This document shows positions 15,001 through 21,000 of a stretch of DNA of 64,000 nucleotides, one piece after another; positions within the stretch are counted from its first letter, which is position 1, and each line of letters begins with the position of its first letter. The DNA is taken from assembly GCF_054482525.1 (NCBI RefSeq), contig NZ_CM137006.1. One strand, given 5' to 3'. A program made the position numbers.

Positions 15001-18000
15001 CAGTCCTGGATACAGTGACGCAAAGTTTCTTTACAAAAACCTAGCTACATAGAGGTTAATCATCGTGTCAAATGTACTGTAGAAATACCTAAAATAATAT
15101 TTTTTTGCTAATATGCGTATAAATGAATAACTATAGACAGATAAAAATATCAGCAAAAAGAAAATTTCCAGCATATTAAACCACAACAATAATACAACAC
15201 TTGGCAAGTTGCCCATAAAGAATGAATAAAACGAAACAATAATTCAAACTTAAACAAACTATAAACAGTTAAACAATATACAATTGACTCATTAAGTTAG
15301 ATATAAAAAATACATATTCAATCATTAAAACGATTGAATGGAGACCTTTTATGCGGGCGAAACTTCTGGGAATAGTCCTGACAACCCCTATTGCGATCAG
15401 CTCTTTTGCTTCTACCGAGACTTTATCGTTTACTCCTGACAACATAAATGCGGACATTAGTCTTGGAACTCTGAGCGGAAAAACAAAAGAGCGCGTTTAT
15501 CTAGCTGAAGAAGGAGGCCGAAAAGTCAGTCAACTCGACTGGAAATTCAATAACGCTGCAATTATTAAAGGTGCAATTAATTGGGATTTGATGCCCCAGA
15601 TATCTATTGGGGCTGCGGGCTGGACTACTCTCGGCAGCCGAGGTGGCAATATGGTCGATCAGGACTGGATGGATTCCAGTAACCCCGGAACCTGGACAGA
15701 TGAAAGTAGGCACCCTGATACACAACTCAATTATGCCAACGAATTTGATCTGAATATCAAAGGCTGGCTCCTCAACGAACCCAATTACCGCCTGGGACTC
15801 ATGGCCGGATATCAGGAAAGCCGTTATAGCTTTACAGCCAGAGGTGGTTCCTATATCTACAGTTCTGAGGAGGGATTCAGAGATGATATCGGCTCCTTCC
15901 CGAATGGAGAAAGAGCAATCGGCTACAAACAACGTTTTAAAATGCCCTACATTGGCTTGACTGGAAGTTATCGTTATGAAGATTTTGAGCTAGGTGGCAC
16001 ATTTAAATACAGCGGCTGGGTGGAAGCATCTGATAACGATGAGCACTATGACCCAGGAAAAAGAATCACTTATCGCAGTAAAGTCAAAGACCAAAATTAC
16101 TATTCTGTTGCAGTCAATGCAGGTTATTACGTAACACCTAACGCAAAAGTTTATGTTGAAGGCGCATGGAATCGGGTTACGAATAAAAAAGGTAATACTT
16201 CACTTTATGATCACAATGATAACACTTCAGACTACAGCAAAAATGGTGCAGGCATAGAAAACTATAACTTCATCACTACTGCTGGTCTTAAGTACACATT
16301 TTAAGAACGCCAACTAAAATTTCCCCGAGGTGAAAATCGCCCCGGGGAATAACTAGCCATTTCAATGTAACAATTAACCCTTAAAATAAACCCAGAAGGT
16401 TATTAACTAAATCACATAGAAAACCATCAATTATAGTGTGTATAAAATAGGCGACAGCGACCCAATTACAAATTAATGGTTCCAGAATATCACATCAAAA
16501 AACACGCTGTATAATATTATAATTAACATGTAGACAACTTGTAATAAACATTATCAGTCAATTGTTTTGTTTATTCCATCTGTGACGCCGATTATTTTCT
16601 CAAAATAATGAGATGGCGTGACACCATAATAATCTTTAAATGCACATATGAAATATGAAGTACTGTTATAGCCACATTTCTGGGCTACGACATTGATAGA
16701 ATAAGAGTTTGAAGTTATGAGTTTTTTTGCATACCTCATCCTAGTATCTCTCAATATTTCAGTAAATGACGTTCCTTCATCCCTTAATCTTTTTTTTATT
16801 AAACTTTCACTCGTATAAATCAATTCCGCAATATCTTTTAAATGCCATTGCCGCTCAATATTAAAACTGATTATTCCAGTAATCTTACAGGTAAATGTAT
16901 TTATATTTGTTAGTATAAATGAATTTACACTTTCACGTTTTTTGAACATGGCAAGTAAGGATATACATAGCCTTTCTTTTAACCAAAGGGAGTGTGAGTC
17001 TGCTATTTTAATCCCTTCAAACAGAGAAAAAACAAGCGATAATGGAGGTTCCTCTTCAGCAATATAGCCATTCTTATCAAGAGTAAATTTGCCAGGCAAC
17101 TCATTATTCACGTCGATAAAAAAGGATAAACATGTTTTCTTATCTATATCAACAATTCTTAGTTTAGAGGGGCATACTGGTAACTCTCTTCTAATTTTGT
17201 CGCTTACAATAAACAATGAATTTTTTTTGAATGAGATAACTCTCCTGTTTATAATTAAATCAAATGATTGACAGATGAAAACTACGGAGCAAACATAATC
17301 CATCTTGCACCTATCATAAAATTAAAACAAGTTGATAGTAGTCAAATAACAACCAATTAAATACACAATCATAATCAGGATGATGTGCATTTATATTTTT
17401 ATACACAAAATTATAGTTTGCAAATTTTAATAAATTTCATTTAAGATTAAATTATTATATGTATATTGTTTTTTATTCTAACGTATTTCAAAGTTACATT
17501 TTTCAACGCTTACTATGCTTTTTATTAACATAAACTCACTACAACGCACCTGAAACCTCTTGCTATATATATGTCAACCGTTTGAATTTAAAATAAAAAG
17601 AGTATCATTTTTACTTGCATTTCTTATCAAGTCACATTCAACAACAGTAAAAAAACATTATTAGAACCATTCAATTAACAAAAAACCAACATCCAGCTTG
17701 CTTAATTTTTCTTTATTAAACGATATTGAAAATCAATTGATAAAATACATCTAAACAACCTTTTTGGGCGCAAAAGCATAACATCAAACAAACAAATAAC
17801 ACACCGAAAAAACTCACAATTAATAACCTATGATATACATACTGTTTATTATGGTTGAATAAGCCACTCGATATCTGGTGCTACGGAAGTGTCCACACGG
17901 TTTAGCAGCACCCGATACTTTTTCCAGGCTTCCAGCAACGAGTTTTCTTCCTCCGTTGCATATACAGCTCACCTTTTTTCACCCACGATTAACCAACAGC

Positions 18001-21000
18001 CAGACCAGCAGACACGCCACCACCGGCACAGCAAAATCCATCAGGCTTGCCACATCCCATGCACGTGTATCAAAACCGCCCCACCACGGCATATTCATTC
18101 GCTTGCCATGCCCGAACATTTCGATCCAGCGATATTCTGCCTGGGTGTGTTCACGCGCAATGAAGAACGTACAACCGGCTATCGCCCCGTAAGCCCAGTT
18201 CCCGGTAAAAAGACCAATCAGTAGCTGCGCAGCCACAGCACAAAGCGCATGAAGGAAAGGTGTTATATCCATTTTCATCCTACCCAATAAAACGGGGCGC
18301 TCGGCCCCTTAATATTATTTAGACGCAAGCGCCGCATCAATTGCAGATAATCTTTGTCTTAATTCTGCGTTTTCTTCTTCCAGTGCTGTTATTCTGTCGT
18401 CTGACTCTCTGGCTACCTGAACAAGCAAGCCAGTAACACCAGAATAATCAACTGTGTAATAACGTTCACCTTCTTCACCTTCCGATCCGCTTGCACCGTC
18501 CTGATATTTCATTGCGGAACCTACAACTTCTGGGATTGCTTCCAGAGCTTCCTGTGCAATGACTCCAGCATAGGGCATACCGTTTTCTTTAAGCGTGTAT
18601 GTATAGCCGTTCATTTTACGGATGCGGTCGGTTGCATTATCGATCACCTGAATGTTGTCTTTCAGATCCCGGTCGGAATGCTGGTTAAATGCGGTGGCAT
18701 GACATGCACCATTAACGCTTAACATATAGGTGTTATCGGTATTTTTCTGCGCATAGAACATATAAGCGCCACCATCAGCACCAACTTCATATACAACCGG
18801 ACGGGTAGAGTTACCCCACAAACTAGTAGTAGCGCCAGAATGAGCGGTTCCCTGTGTGTTGATTGTCATGGTTGACCCATGATTGGCATATTTGATTTGT
18901 AATGTGTCTGTGCAGTCAAACTTAATAAGCGCGTTACTTCCCCGCACACCATACGACATGAGACAGTTCCCCATCTTAAGGTAACCATCACTGCCTGGAA
19001 AAATTAATGTTCCGCCGTAAAGATCGCTAAAATCCCAAAAGATACCTTTTGTTCCATTGTGTGTGACAATCCTTGTCATTGTATCTTTTGTACCGTCAAT
19101 ATTTTTTCTGGTGTACATCTCACTATAAGCGTTTTCGGTTTCTCCTGTCTTATTTGACAAGTGAATCTTACCGCTAAATATAGTTCCAGTGGTCGGCAAT
19201 GTCTTTTGATTATAGATTACATTGCAATAACTATTCCATGTTGTTTTATTGTCTACATATGATTTTGTTGCGTAGCTTCCTTGATCGTTTTTTAATTTGC
19301 TAACGTCGGATTTTAGCGTTTTGATATCATCAGGAATTACTGTCGATGTAGCCATTTTTCTTCCTCACATCCAGCCACGAAGTTGATGCTCAACAGCAAC
19401 CGCGTATTCATCGAATAATGACGATATTTGCGAATCATTAATGATGCGCACGTTTACAAAATATCCGTCCTCCTTAACACATACCGGCTCGCCATCTTCA
19501 GTAAGTTCTCCGGTTTCTTTGTACACATTACCTATCACGTCAATAAGAATATCATCCTGCATCGACTCGTCATCATAATAGCCAATACTCTCCATAAAGG
19601 CCGAAAAGTCGGCCCTGTCGGCAAATTTGAGTGTTAAATCTTTCATTAGATTGACTCCCCCATCTGAGCATCAGTCAATGCCTTGTGCCATATTCTGAAA
19701 TTCCTGACATGACCAAATAAATGACGCAACCCGGCTGTAGTCTGGCCTCCAATACGGATAATTGCGGTGTTCTGAATATAGGACCATGTGGCTTTCTTTT
19801 CGCTGGATATACGCCCGTTACTTACTGAGCACGTAGACTGATCTGACTTTACACGCATCCCCATAACCATTTTTTCAAGCGATGCGTTTTCGTTTACCCG
19901 TCTGTTAGCCAAACCTATATCGCAATAAGGAAATCCGTCGTAATCTGTTGAACGACCGAAGCCAAGAATAATAGCCGCTCCGGTTTGATGACCGCCGGTA
20001 TCAAAAACACGCGGTGCTGCATTTGGCGTTTTATACCAGTTCTTATGTACCTCACAAAGAACTGTAAAAGGAAGATTATAAAGGTTATTCTTGATTGAGA
20101 CTGTCACCATATCGCTTGCGCGAGTGCTTGCAATTATATCAGTTACAATAAATGACGAAGCACTTGATCCACCTTCCACTTGTGGAGTTGCGATATCCAG
20201 ATAGTCTCCAGATGCTGTGCCTGAACCTTTTACTGGAGCATATTGAACCATCGCACCAATCATGCTCTCTGTATCTAGTGCATTAATTGTAGCCTGATAG
20301 AAAATCTAACCAGTAGCCTCATCTTTTACAGCCTTTGCAATAATACGATTTGCTGCACCACCAGTCTTATCAATTACAAGTGTTGATAAATTGAGGTAAG
20401 CATCTCCCAAAAAAGTGTAAGTAGAACCATCATGATGTTCAAATCTTAAACGACACCTTATATTTTCAACATCACTTCTGACACGGCATGAAATGGTCAC
20501 ATATTTTTCATCACCTGTGACATCAAATCCTTTACTGCCAGAAACCGTTACGATATTAATCGCACTTGTCTGATCAATAAGAGTATCTTTTACAGTAAAT
20601 CTCCCATAAGTAAAATTAAAAGAATCCGTGGATATTTCTGTGAGTTCCAGATTGCCTGACTTATTCCATTTAGATGGATTTGTTGAATTAAGCAGAAGAT
20701 TAGTTCTTTGCCCCTCAATAAGCAGGCCATCACGTTCAAATCGCGGCTCGTCAATGGCAGCCTCTGTCAGTACACCAGATTTATTAATATAGGTTGCTTT
20801 CGATGCGCGTTTAAACTTAACAACCTTGTCACCAGGCATCGTTATTTCATCATCACCAATAACAATCTTTTTATATGATGGCGAAAAGCCCGTAATCATA
20901 TCCAGTGAATCGTTAAACGGTATCCACACATCGGGAAGCGGCTGCAAAACTTGTTTATACGGCTCCGCAGCCTGGCTTGCATACTCTCTGGCTGCGTCTT

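What the first reader, a model, noticed from the sequence alone, without database searches (positions are those of the whole stretch)
17979..19646. Non-lambda distal tail-fibre module replacing tfa
Where lambda has the tail fibre assembly gene after stf, this prophage has three unrelated ORFs: an acidic 93-aa protein, a 346-aa fibre-like protein with a C-terminal coiled coil that could be an autoproteolytic intramolecular chaperone, and a 102-aa membrane protein. This looks like a swapped receptor-recognition cassette and the membrane protein could be a lysogenic-conversion or exclusion factor.
Basis: inference. Interest (0 to 1): 0.4.

Follow-up and report, generated by a model that had tools for sequence, protein, structure and literature searches.

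The report
Two-piece side tail fibre plus membrane gene
The three genes are real: two belong to a known, mobile two-piece phage tail-fibre cassette, and the third is a very common uncharacterised small membrane protein whose bacterial relatives sit in capsule/Kdo sugar-lipid gene clusters.

Summary
All three ORFs are real genes on the minus strand. The third more likely starts at ATG 18272, giving 97 aa rather than 102.

**Fibre genes.** The 93-aa and 346-aa genes are the downstream part of a three-gene lateral-fibre cassette:
- a proximal fibre with a LamG/galectin-like end,
- a small acidic protein of about 92 aa,
- a distal subunit with a conserved N-terminal anchor (TVIPxDIxxLK), a variable receptor-binding part and a Peptidase_S74 self-cleaving chaperone (S227/K232).

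The same cassette occurs in T5-like IrisVonRoten gp22-24 and in T1-like, 9g-like and many lambdoid phages. This is a new member of a known kind.

**This copy is probably crippled.** The proximal fibre gene (stf) carries one private amber codon (20306-20308). A 3' tfa fragment survives at 17849-17962.

**The 97-aa gene is not part of the fibre.** The virulent carriers inspected lack an intact copy. It follows fibre or spike genes in temperate sipho-, myo- and podoviruses and occurs in 35% of complete E. coli genomes. It matches no Pfam, NCBIfam or PADLOC family. In about 45% of the alphaproteobacterial loci sampled, cellular homologues lie within 7 kb of kps/Kdo capsule genes.

The best guess, unproven, is an inner-membrane factor that alters envelope glycolipid or capsule (lysogenic conversion or exclusion).

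The parts
19646..22030 (-). Proximal side tail fibre gene (stf), 794 codons: phage_tail_N domain, Ala-rich repeats, and a C-terminal LamG/ConA-like ('galectin-like') domain. It is interrupted by one amber codon, so it reads as 574-aa and 205-aa ORFs.
   Evidence: PHROG 1419 (793 positions) matches the 574-aa ORF at 1-570 and the 205-aa ORF at 586-793. Pfam phage_tail_N scores E 4e-67 and there is a weak Laminin_G_3 match. It aligns without gaps to intact 790-792-aa genes in L001-L003. It is 55% identical over 682 aa to IrisVonRoten gp22.
20306..20308 (-). In-frame amber codon (TAG) at codon 575 of stf, where homologues have TGG (Trp).
   Evidence: Alignment. The closest E. coli genomes listed differ from the window by one base in 321 (99.7%), and none of the 5,426 genomes is identical.
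19365..19646 (-). 93-aa acidic protein (pI 4.05), the constant partner of LamG-type proximal fibres. Its start codon overlaps the stf stop codon (TAATG).
   Evidence: PHROG 1361, E 5e-46. Homologues lie directly after the lateral fibre gene in lambdoid, T1-like, T5-like, 9g-like, rV5-like and Dhillonvirus phages. AlphaFold2 gives pLDDT 86.5 for a small alpha/beta fold with no informative structural neighbour.
18675..19355 (-). Mature part (residues 1-227) of the 346-aa distal fibre subunit: an N-terminal anchor (MATSTVIPDDIKTLKSDVSK) followed by a variable receptor-binding region.
   Evidence: The N-terminal ~20 residues are shared with the otherwise unrelated 234-aa allele. They are also shared with the distal subunits of JenP2, L6jm, IrisVonRoten, KarlBarth and KarlJaspers. 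PHROG 4563 'tail fiber protein', E 6e-208.
18315..18674 (-). Peptidase_S74 intramolecular chaperone domain (residues 228-346, plus the stop codon). The predicted cleavage is after S227, with K232 as the general base, and the domain ends in a C-terminal coiled coil.
   Evidence: Pfam PF13884 E 6.4e-14, 52.4 bits against a cut-off of 22, residues 227-278. Alignment to PDB 6f45 chain A, the phage S16 long-tail-fibre distal subunit. Motif position.
18294..18308 (-). GC-rich hairpin followed by a T run (terminator-like), between the 346-aa gene and the 97-aa gene.
   Evidence: Consensus scan. It is present only in the 346-aa class of loci. In the 234-aa class and the no-distal-subunit class the 97-aa gene follows a stop codon and an AGGAGG within about 12 nt.
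17979..18272 (-). 97-aa small membrane protein (PHROG 1443) with an invariant loop REHTQAEYRWI...MPWWGGFD. It is an accessory gene, not part of the fibre.
   Evidence: Coding is supported by the codon-position pattern. The profile search found 428 family clusters, and all 150 listed are small stand-alone proteins. AlphaFold2 gives pLDDT 89 with helices 4-23, 26-53 and 74-96. Hydropathy peaks lie at about residues 3-24 and 76-96. There is no Pfam, NCBIfam or PADLOC match.
17849..17962 (-). 3' fragment (38 codons) of a lambda-type tail fibre assembly gene (tfa). It is a fossil at the appY-proximal end of the prophage.
   Evidence: It translates to ...[29 protein letters not shown]. The homologous stretch in strain SB0258h1 is annotated 'tail fiber assembly protein, missing N-terminus'.

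Best explanation
The region holds two separate things.

**(A) The 93-aa and 346-aa genes, with the C-terminal half of stf, form a mobile two-piece side (lateral) tail-fibre cassette.**
- The proximal fibre (Stf) attaches to the tail through its N-terminal domain and ends in a LamG/galectin-like lectin domain.
- The 346-aa protein is the distal subunit. Its conserved N-terminal ~20 residues are inferred to dock it onto the distal end of the proximal fibre, perhaps through or with the help of the 93-aa acidic protein.
- Its middle part binds a variable surface glycan.
- Its C-terminal S74 domain is inferred to drive trimer folding and then cut itself off after S227.
- In this prophage the cassette is probably out of service, because stf has an amber codon that removes its last 220 residues.

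**(B) The 97-aa gene is an independent accessory gene carried at the end of the late operon.**
- It encodes a membrane protein, presumably of the inner membrane, with 2-3 spans and an invariant interfacial loop.
- I infer that it acts on a conserved envelope glycolipid or polysaccharide pathway (Kdo-lipid, LPS core or kps-type capsule). On that view it changes the cell surface of the lysogen or of the late-infected cell, which amounts to lysogenic conversion or exclusion at the surface.

**What is shown and what is inferred.** Gene reality, homologies, domain content, gene order and distribution are shown. Docking, self-cleavage, the role of the 93-aa protein and the whole function of the 97-aa protein are inferred.
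For: **Fibre cassette**
- S74 domain and catalytic motif.
- Gene-for-gene match to IrisVonRoten gp22/gp23/gp24: 55% identity over 682 aa, 39% over the full length, and a shared N-terminal motif plus S74 domain.
- Humolli et al. 2025 (PMC11990801) predict a proximal fibre Gp22 with a galectin-like C-terminal domain carrying a distal fibre Gp24 with an intramolecular chaperone.
- Maffei et al. [quoted passage not shown]
- In 124 loci holding both flanking genes, the slot between the 93-aa gene and the 97-aa gene is filled in one of three ways: a 346-aa subunit (51), a 234-aa subunit (64) or nothing (9). The two subunit classes share only the first ~20-30 residues.
- The anchor motif is shared by phages with different tail tips. 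The proximal-fibre end and the 93-aa protein are the components I identified as common to them.
- The 93-aa protein is 81-99% identical to the window's wherever a distal subunit is present (one exception at 43%), and 41-53% identical where none is.

**97-aa gene**
- It is absent from the virulent carriers of the cassette that I inspected.
- It follows a P22-like tailspike (JEP4), a tail fibre assembly gene in phiHAP-1, a P2-like fibre in Aeromonas and a J-like protein in Comamonas.
- Homologues above 75% identity occur only in temperate phages and prophages.
- It is present in 1,899 of 5,426 E. coli genomes.
- Orphan copies are kept in the chromosomes of Silvania, Leclercia and Aeromonas.
- 25 of 55 alphaproteobacterial loci, plus two metagenome loci, have KpsC/S, KpsD, KdsA, KpsU or KpsF homologues within 7 kb, and 9 loci have all five. 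In Aureimonas the order is KpsD-OMP-p97-KdsA-KpsU-KpsF on one strand.
Against: **Fibre cassette**
- No structure of the complex and no virion proteomics were available here.
- I could not predict the 346-aa structure, because both prediction jobs went to the two proteins of unknown function.
- The 93-aa protein is also present where no distal subunit follows (phage 21, ev243). It may therefore serve the proximal fibre as a chaperone rather than act as a connector.
- Its conservation next to the anchor could reflect plain genetic linkage.

**97-aa gene**
- The link to Kdo and capsule is guilt by association in distant (about 45-55% identical) cellular homologues. Those loci are phylogenetically related to one another, and about half the alphaproteobacterial loci show no such neighbours.
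- The gene is translationally coupled to late genes. No promoter of its own stood out: the scan found 8 promoter-like sites against 10.1 expected by chance. Expression in lysogens is therefore not shown.
- Up to 7 copies coexist in one E. coli genome. That argues against a broad block on phages that carry it.
- No fold or family relative gives a chemical function.
Confidence: 0.6

Rival explanations
1. The 97-aa protein is a classical post-adsorption superinfection-exclusion protein. Like T4 Imm or HK97 gp15, it would sit in the inner membrane and block DNA entry of incoming phages, with no effect on surface glycans.
For: It is a small polytopic membrane protein. It is an accessory gene of temperate phages at the end of the tail operon. 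Distant homologues occur in large Aeromonas phages away from any annotated tail gene. These analogies to Imm and gp15 rest on my own knowledge.
Against: The loop is invariant across phages of Enterobacteria, Aeromonas and Comamonas that have unrelated tails and therefore, presumably, different entry routes. Cellular homologues lie in kps/Kdo operons and in conserved non-phage chromosomal loci. Up to 7 copies coexist with polylysogeny. There is no PADLOC or Pfam match.
Confidence: 0.2
2. The 93-aa protein is only a dedicated folding chaperone for the LamG-type end of the proximal fibre, a functional replacement for Tfa, and is not in the virion. The distal subunit would dock directly on Stf.
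For: It is always translationally coupled to the proximal fibre gene. It is present even where no distal subunit exists, as in phage 21, ev243 and PhiR41_1. It is small and acidic and occupies the position that tfa holds in lambda.
Against: Its sequence does not track the Stf C-terminal domain: the 93-aa protein is 81-99% identical while that domain ranges from 36 to 99%. It does track the presence of a distal subunit. GenBank annotates the IrisVonRoten homologue as 'tail fiber protein'. There is no similarity to Tfa families and no informative fold match.
Confidence: 0.4
3. The 346-aa protein is an independent short fibre that binds the tail tip (J or the baseplate) directly, rather than extending or branching from Stf.
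For: It is a separate gene with its own ribosome-binding site. The amber codon in stf would then not affect it.
Against: Its N-terminal anchor is conserved in lambdoid, T5-like, T1-like, 9g-like and Dhillonvirus phages, which have different tail tips. What I found these phages to share is the proximal-fibre distal half and the 93-aa protein. It never occurs without them in the 115 loci examined. The published model for IrisVonRoten puts the homologue on the proximal fibre.
Confidence: 0.1
4. The 97-aa ORF is non-coding, or a plus-strand ORF is the real gene.
For: Two plus-strand ORFs of 104 and 111 aa overlap it.
Against: Third-position substitutions are in excess in the minus-strand frame. 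The protein family is conserved at about 60% identity in Aeromonas and Comamonas. The profile search found 428 family clusters. AlphaFold2 gives a confident model.
Confidence: 0.01

Closest known systems
Lateral tail fibre locus of Tequintavirus IrisVonRoten (Bas32) gp22-gp23-gp24 (Humolli et al. 2025, PMC11990801)
   Same: The gene order is the same: a proximal fibre with a galectin/LamG-like C-terminal domain (55% identity over 682 aa), then a ~92-aa acidic protein (39% identity), then a distal fibre. The distal fibre has the same N-terminal motif (M.T.TVIP.DI..LK) and a C-terminal S74 intramolecular chaperone.
   Different: The host phage there is a virulent T5-like phage, and its fibre N-terminus fits a different tail. 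Its gp24 is 574 aa with two receptor-binding domains ('T-shaped'), whereas the window's distal subunit is 346 aa and shares only about 25% identity over the C-terminal part. There is no 97-aa membrane gene downstream.
Branched lateral tail fibres of T5-like DT57C (LtfA/LtfB; Golomidova et al. 2016, PMC4728585; PMC10713586)
   Same: The lateral fibre is built from two gene products. Only the first is attached to the tail, and the second is attached through the first.
   Different: I did not test sequence relatedness of LtfA or LtfB to the window proteins, and I did not examine whether a small intervening protein exists there.
Intramolecular-chaperone (Peptidase_S74) fibres and spikes: K1F endosialidase, T5 pb1, S16 gp37 (PDB 6f45)
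   Same: The C-terminal S74 domain, the Ser-Lys motif at the cleavage site and the terminal helical segment are shared.
   Different: In those phages the chaperone sits at the end of a long, tail-attached protein. Here it ends a short separate subunit that needs another fibre protein to reach the virion. Cleavage has not been shown here.
Lambda Stf-Tfa
   Same: The position after J and lom is the same, and so is the N-terminal phage_tail_N domain of Stf. By my own knowledge, the lambda PaPa laboratory strain also carries a disrupted stf, so a broken side fibre gene has a precedent.
   Different: The distal half of Stf is of another type (LamG-like). No functional Tfa is encoded, only a 38-codon 3' remnant. 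Folding of the tip relies on an intramolecular chaperone instead.
Conversion and exclusion genes placed after receptor-binding genes in temperate phages (P22 gtrABC, Sf6 oac, T5 llp, cor; HK97 gp15, T4 imm as membrane exclusion proteins)
   Same: These are accessory, non-structural genes. In the P22-like phage JEP4 the 97-aa homologue lies between the tailspike gene and int, which by my own knowledge is where P22 carries gtrABC. The product is a small membrane protein.
   Different: There is no sequence or profile relationship to any of them. It is co-oriented and translationally coupled with the late genes. Its sequence is highly conserved rather than matched to a particular receptor. No phenotype is known.

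Membership tests
Peptidase_S74 / intramolecular-chaperone tail fibre proteins | Match to Pfam PF13884 above the gathering score | tested here: met
   52.4 bits against a cut-off of 22, E 6.4e-14, residues 227-278.
Peptidase_S74 / intramolecular-chaperone tail fibre proteins | Catalytic Ser and Lys in an S-D-x-x-x-K context at the N-terminal edge of the domain | tested here: met
   HS227-D-R-D-L-K232. It aligns with SSDRRIKKD of the phage S16 long-tail-fibre distal subunit, PDB 6f45. The roles assigned to Ser and Lys come from my own knowledge of K1F endosialidase.
Peptidase_S74 / intramolecular-chaperone tail fibre proteins | Helical or coiled-coil segment closing the chaperone domain | tested here: inconclusive
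   The sequence RITALEEENAELRQRLSAIDAALASK and similar C-termini in homologues look like it. I ran no coiled-coil or structure prediction on this protein.
Peptidase_S74 / intramolecular-chaperone tail fibre proteins | Autoproteolytic release of the chaperone, and a trimeric fibre upstream of it | not testable with these tools
   Needs protein expression and mass spectrometry, or a multimer structure prediction.
Two-piece lateral tail fibre cassette (IrisVonRoten gp22-24 type) | Proximal fibre homologous, including the LamG/galectin-like C-terminal domain | tested here: met
   55% identity over 682 aa to gp22. The conserved C-terminal block G.RHLFGH.RNFRIWHK.LTD is present. In the window the gene carries an amber codon.
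Two-piece lateral tail fibre cassette (IrisVonRoten gp22-24 type) | Small (~92 aa) acidic protein encoded directly after, and overlapping, the proximal fibre gene | tested here: met
   39% identity to gp23 and 54% to the KarlJaspers homologue. The start and stop codons overlap as TAATG.
Two-piece lateral tail fibre cassette (IrisVonRoten gp22-24 type) | Distal subunit with the conserved N-terminal anchor motif followed by variable receptor-binding parts | tested here: met
   MATSTVIPDDIKTLK compared with MVTKTVIPTDITKLK, MVTKTIIPTDITTLK and MATVTNIPADITALK. The two alleles at this locus share only this segment.
Two-piece lateral tail fibre cassette (IrisVonRoten gp22-24 type) | Physical attachment of the distal subunit to the proximal fibre in the virion | not testable with these tools
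   Only a published prediction for the homologue exists.
Lambda-type tail fibre assembly proteins (Tfa) | Sequence membership of the 93-aa, 346-aa or 97-aa protein | tested here: not met
   None of the three matches a Tfa family in Pfam or NCBIfam. Only a separate 38-codon tfa remnant lies at 17849-17962.
Known phage exclusion and conversion membrane proteins (Imm, gp15, SieA, GtrA) and defence-system proteins | Sequence or profile match of the 97-aa protein | tested here: not met
Known phage exclusion and conversion membrane proteins (Imm, gp15, SieA, GtrA) and defence-system proteins | Exclusion or surface-conversion phenotype in cells expressing the protein | not testable with these tools
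   Needs an experiment.
Cor/Llp-type exclusion lipoproteins | Signal peptide with a basic n-region and a lipobox, with the Cys conserved | tested here: not met
   An IAGC string lies at residues 31-34. However, the preceding 30 residues start with MD, contain invariant H8 and a conserved Q16, and are modelled as a helical hairpin. The Cys is absent in several members.
Holins | Position in the lysis cassette and a charged C-terminal tail | tested here: not met
   The gene follows fibre genes, not lysis genes. The C-terminus is ...LLVNRG. Cellular homologues lie in capsule operons.

The most novel reading that the evidence does not exclude
The 97-aa protein may represent an undescribed family of small inner-membrane proteins that act on Kdo-linked envelope glycolipids (LPS inner core, lipid A, or the lipid anchor or export of kps-type capsules).
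- Bacteria would use it inside capsule/Kdo operons.
- Temperate phages of all three tail types would have captured it and placed it after their glycan-directed receptor-binding genes.
- It would then be a new, very widespread mechanism of lysogenic conversion or surface-level exclusion, present in about a third of E. coli genomes.
Probability: 0.3. Interest if true: 0.65.

Novelty: new member of a known kind. Interest (0 to 1): 0.4.

Why it matters
**Fibre part.** This shows that the two-piece lateral-fibre cassette described for virulent T5-like and T1-like phages is also a standard, exchangeable side-fibre module of lambdoid prophages in E. coli. Its slot holds at least three states: a 346-aa distal subunit, a 234-aa one, or none. 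That is useful for predicting and engineering host range, but it is not surprising.

**97-aa protein.** This is where something could be learned.
- It is one of the commoner prophage genes of E. coli (35% of complete genomes, up to 7 copies each) and is annotated only as hypothetical.
- It is more conserved than the receptor-binding genes it follows.
- Its bacterial homologues sit in Kdo/capsule operons.

If it alters LPS or capsule, it would be a new conversion factor affecting phage susceptibility, serotype-related surface properties and possibly virulence traits. It would also point to an unknown component of kps-type capsule assembly.

Tried and rejected
- **Sequence search of PDB.** Nothing real was found for the 93-aa and 97-aa proteins.
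- **Defence-system models.** PADLOC gave nothing.
- **Lipoprotein idea for the 97-aa protein** (IAGC at 31-34; the phage 21 record notes a SignalP signal sequence). Rejected because the would-be signal peptide contains invariant polar residues and lacks a basic n-region, and because the Cys is not universal.
- **Holin or lysis role.** Rejected on position and on the cellular homologues.
- **Selection in lysogens.** I compared intactness of the 97-aa gene (129/133) with that of stf (120/128) in IMG/VR loci. Once gene length is allowed for, the comparison is uninformative.
- **Own promoter for the 97-aa gene.** Promoter-like sites were no more frequent than in shuffled sequence (8 against 10.1), and none stood out upstream of the gene.
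- **Literature.** Searches for this gene arrangement in lambdoid phages, or for a phenotype of the membrane protein, found nothing specific. The Hf4s seroconversion paper concerns an ordinary gtr cluster.
- **My first alignment of the stf junction** used wrong coordinates and was redone.

Full report
**1. Setting**

The window is E. coli DNA with a lambdoid prophage next to appY (16554-17303, minus strand) and ompT (15351-16304). This is the DLP12-type locus. The closest complete genome at this junction, strain SB0258h1, is annotated envY-ompT-appY followed by the same prophage end.

The late operon runs on the minus strand in this order:
- J (22756-26235)
- lom (22089-22688)
- an stf-like gene
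- the three ORFs of the finding

**2. Are the ORFs real?**

Yes. Each of the three matches a PHROG family over its whole length: PHROG 1361 for the 93-aa ORF, PHROG 4563 'tail fiber protein' for the 346-aa ORF, and PHROG 1443 for the third.

I tested the third ORF directly.
- In codon-aware comparisons with 11 homologues, from 100% down to 39% protein identity, changes fall mainly on the third position of the minus-strand frame.
- The family is conserved at about 60% identity in Aeromonas and Comamonas, with an invariant central block.
- The overlapping plus-strand ORFs are therefore shadows.

The start is most likely ATG 18272 (MDITPF..., 97 aa). All homologues begin ATGGAT, preceded by a Shine-Dalgarno sequence, and the annotated records inspected call the gene at 95-97 aa.

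**3.

*Upstream.* The 574-aa and 205-aa ORFs before the finding are the two halves of one fibre gene. PHROG 1419 (793 positions) covers 1-570 in the first ORF and 586-793 in the second. A gap-free alignment with intact 790-792-aa genes shows a single TGG to TAG change at 20306-20308. Among 5,426 complete E. coli genomes the best matches to the surrounding 321 nt are 99.7% identical, which is one mismatch, and none is identical. The amber codon is therefore private to this sequence. It is either a recent nonsense mutation or a sequencing error. It removes the last 220 residues, including the LamG/ConA-like domain.

*Downstream.* After the 97-aa gene, a 38-codon 3' fragment of a lambda-type tfa survives at 17849-17962.

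**4. The 346-aa protein**

- It carries Pfam Peptidase_S74 ('chaperone of endosialidase') at residues 227-278, with 52.4 bits against a cut-off of 22.
- The cleavage-site context HS227-DRDL-K232 is present.
- It aligns with the chaperone part of the phage S16 long-tail-fibre distal subunit in PDB 6f45.
- Its C-terminal two thirds match the C-termini of 1,000-1,600-aa fibre families in PHROGs.

Cleavage itself is inferred.

**5. It is the distal subunit of a two-piece fibre**

I collected 160 related loci from IMG/VR and phage records. In 124 of them both the 93-aa gene and the 97-aa gene are present, and the space between them takes one of three forms:

| Slot content | Loci |
|---|---|
| 346-aa gene | 51 |
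| 234-aa gene | 64 |
| nothing | 9 |

The 234-aa protein also has an S74 domain (27.3 bits). It shares with the 346-aa protein only the first ~20-30 residues, MATSTVIPxDIxTLKxDVSK.

The same N-terminal motif heads the gene that follows the small acidic protein in these phages:
- JenP2 (9g-like)
- L6jm and IrisVonRoten (T5-like)
- KarlBarth (Dhillonvirus)
- KarlJaspers (T1-like)

A conserved N-terminus followed by unrelated distal parts is the usual signature of a docking segment. These phages have different tail tips. The elements I found them to share are the distal half of the proximal fibre and the ~92-aa protein, so the partner of the anchor is most likely one of those two.

The whole arrangement matches IrisVonRoten gp22-gp23-gp24 gene for gene:
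- gp22: 55% identity over 682 aa
- gp23: 39% identity
- gp24: shared N-terminal motif plus S74 domain

Humolli et al. 2025 predict a proximal fibre, Gp22, with a protruding galectin-like C-terminal domain, which carries a distal fibre, Gp24, with a T5-like receptor-binding domain and an intramolecular chaperone (PMC11990801). Maffei et al. [quoted passage not shown] The branched LtfA/LtfB fibres of DT57C are a further precedent.

The fibre part of the finding is therefore a lambdoid member of a known kind of cassette. ESCO3, a virulent 9g-like phage, carries nearly the same three genes (84-91% protein identity for the fibre end, the 93-aa protein and the chaperone domain; 74% across the distal subunit). 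This shows that the cassette moves as a unit.

**6. The 93-aa protein**

What is known about it:
- It is acidic (pI 4.05).
- It is translationally coupled to the proximal fibre gene.
- It lies directly after the lateral fibre gene in every phage record I inspected, out of 181 that contain a homologue: lambdoid, T1-like, T5-like, 9g-like, rV5-like and Dhillonvirus phages.
- AlphaFold2 gives a confident small alpha/beta fold (pLDDT 86.5) with no informative neighbour in PDB.

Two facts pull in different directions.
- It is present where no distal subunit follows (phage 21, ev243, PhiR41_1). This ties it to the proximal fibre.
- Its sequence type tracks the presence of a distal subunit: 81-99% identity to the window's where there is one (one exception at 43%), and 41-53% where there is none. 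Meanwhile the Stf C-terminal domain varies from 36 to 99% within the same set.

I therefore leave its role open between a connector and an assembly factor for the joint.

**7. The 97-aa protein is a separate matter**

*It is not needed for the fibre.* IrisVonRoten, L6jm, KarlJaspers, JenP2 and ESCO3 have the cassette without it. In phage HC6 only a frameshifted remnant follows an S74 tailspike.

*It is not tied to this fibre.* It follows, often with an ATGA overlap:
- the tailspike of the P22-like phage JEP4, just before int
- the tail fibre assembly gene of phiHAP-1
- a P2-like fibre in an Aeromonas prophage
- a J-like protein in Comamonas

*Distribution.*
- Homologues above 75% identity are found only in temperate phages and prophages.
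- The gene is in 1,899 of 5,426 complete E. coli genomes, with a median of 2 and a maximum of 7 copies, always annotated as hypothetical.
- A profile search of 1.8 billion representative proteins found 428 clusters, and all 150 listed are small stand-alone proteins.
- There is no Pfam, NCBIfam or PADLOC model.

*Structure and conservation.* AlphaFold2 (pLDDT 89) gives three helices, at 4-23, 26-53 and 74-96. Hydropathy marks about residues 3-24 and 76-96 as strongly hydrophobic and 25-40 as moderately so. The invariant residues (H8, R40, E41, E46, W72) and the near-invariant ones (Q44, A45, R48, I50, R58, P62, D79, P83) lie mostly in the segment after helix 2 and in the loop.

**8. A functional lead for the 97-aa family**

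I scanned one genome per species (about 100,000 species). The scan returned 80 loci.

- *Enterobacteria, Comamonas and Acidovorax.* These are mostly prophage tail contexts.
- *Silvania, Leclercia and Aeromonas.* Here the gene is an orphan in conserved chromosomal positions.
  - Silvania: between dbpA and an ompN-like porin.
  - Leclercia: between a GNAT gene and a MetE-like gene.
  - Aeromonas (four species): beside a RIO-type kinase and two lipid A late acyltransferase homologues.
- *Alphaproteobacteria (55 loci).* 25 have homologues of KpsC/S, KpsD, KdsA, KpsU or KpsF within 7 kb, and 9 have all five. Two metagenome loci show the same pattern. In Aureimonas frigidaquae the order is KpsD, an outer-membrane barrel, the 97-aa homologue, KdsA, KpsU and KpsF, all on one strand with short gaps.

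By my rough estimate, chance would place such genes next to a random gene in about 1% of loci. The loci are phylogenetically related to one another, so the count overstates independence. Even so, the association spans Sphingomonadales, Aureimonas and Devosia.

The common theme is Kdo-linked glycolipid: Kdo synthesis, the Kdo transferases of capsule anchoring, capsule export, and Kdo-dependent lipid A acylation. A conserved target of that kind would explain why the loop is invariant in phages of very different hosts and tail types. It would also explain why the gene travels with glycan-directed receptor-binding genes.

I therefore favour a conversion or exclusion role at the level of the envelope. 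It is inference from distribution only, and three points count against it:
- The coupling to late genes means expression in lysogens is unproven.
- Multiple copies per genome argue against broad exclusion of phages that carry the gene.
- An Imm/gp15-like block of DNA entry remains a live rival.

**9. Verdict**

- The fibre interpretation is right in substance, but it describes a known kind of cassette, and in this prophage the cassette is probably disabled.
- The membrane protein is a real, very common, uncharacterised gene. A new and testable lead links it to Kdo/capsule pathways, and that lead is the only part of the finding with some claim to novelty.

Noticed in passing
window 20306-20308 (minus strand): There is a single in-frame amber codon (TGG to TAG) in the side tail fibre gene. 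It is private to this sequence: the closest E. coli genomes listed differ by exactly this one base in 321 nt. It is either a recent knockout of the fibre or a sequencing error.
   Followed up: yes
window 17849-17962 (minus strand): A 38-codon 3' remnant of a lambda-type tail fibre assembly gene lies between the 97-aa gene and appY. It is likely a fossil of an earlier prophage end at the DLP12-type locus.
   Followed up: partly
window 18294-18308: A terminator-like GC hairpin with a T run lies between the 346-aa gene and the 97-aa gene. It is present only in loci with the 346-aa allele. Other alleles have a tight stop-AGGAGG-ATG junction.
   Followed up: partly
IMG/VR loci such as L125, L075, L163 (between the 93-aa and 97-aa genes): An alternative 234-aa distal subunit allele is commoner in the sample than the 346-aa allele (64 loci against 51). 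It has the same first ~20-30 residues, a short coiled coil, a tiny tip and an S74 domain. It is 59% identical to a KarlJaspers protein annotated 'putative lateral tail fiber chaperone'.
   Followed up: partly
L184, L186 (Silvania); L181, L189, L191 (Leclercia); L180, L182, L185, L188 (Aeromonas): Orphan copies of the 97-aa gene occupy conserved chromosomal positions with no phage genes around them. In Silvania it lies between dbpA and an ompN-like porin, and in Aeromonas beside two lipid A acyltransferase homologues. This suggests the host retains the gene after the prophage decays.
   Followed up: partly
L014 3965-4120 (Escherichia phage HC6): A frameshifted remnant of the 97-aa gene lies directly after an 859-aa tailspike with an S74 domain. 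The remnant is unannotated in the record.
   Followed up: partly
L167 3770-4649 (phage KarlBarth): Here the distal subunit is split into a 98-aa piece carrying only the anchor motif and a 196-aa Phage_tail_C_2 tip with no intramolecular chaperone. It is another way of building the same joint.
   Followed up: no
window 20896-21735 (minus strand) and 21219-21659 (plus strand): Long alternative-frame ORFs of 279 and 146 aa lie inside the Ala-rich repeat region of stf (KTSETNAK-type repeats, strong AT skew). They look like shadows caused by the repeats, not genes.
   Followed up: no
L010 5386-8835 (phage 21): In the classic phage 21, the sitABCD iron/manganese transporter operon lies immediately after the 97-aa gene on the opposite strand. 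This shows that the position is a cargo hot spot.
   Followed up: no
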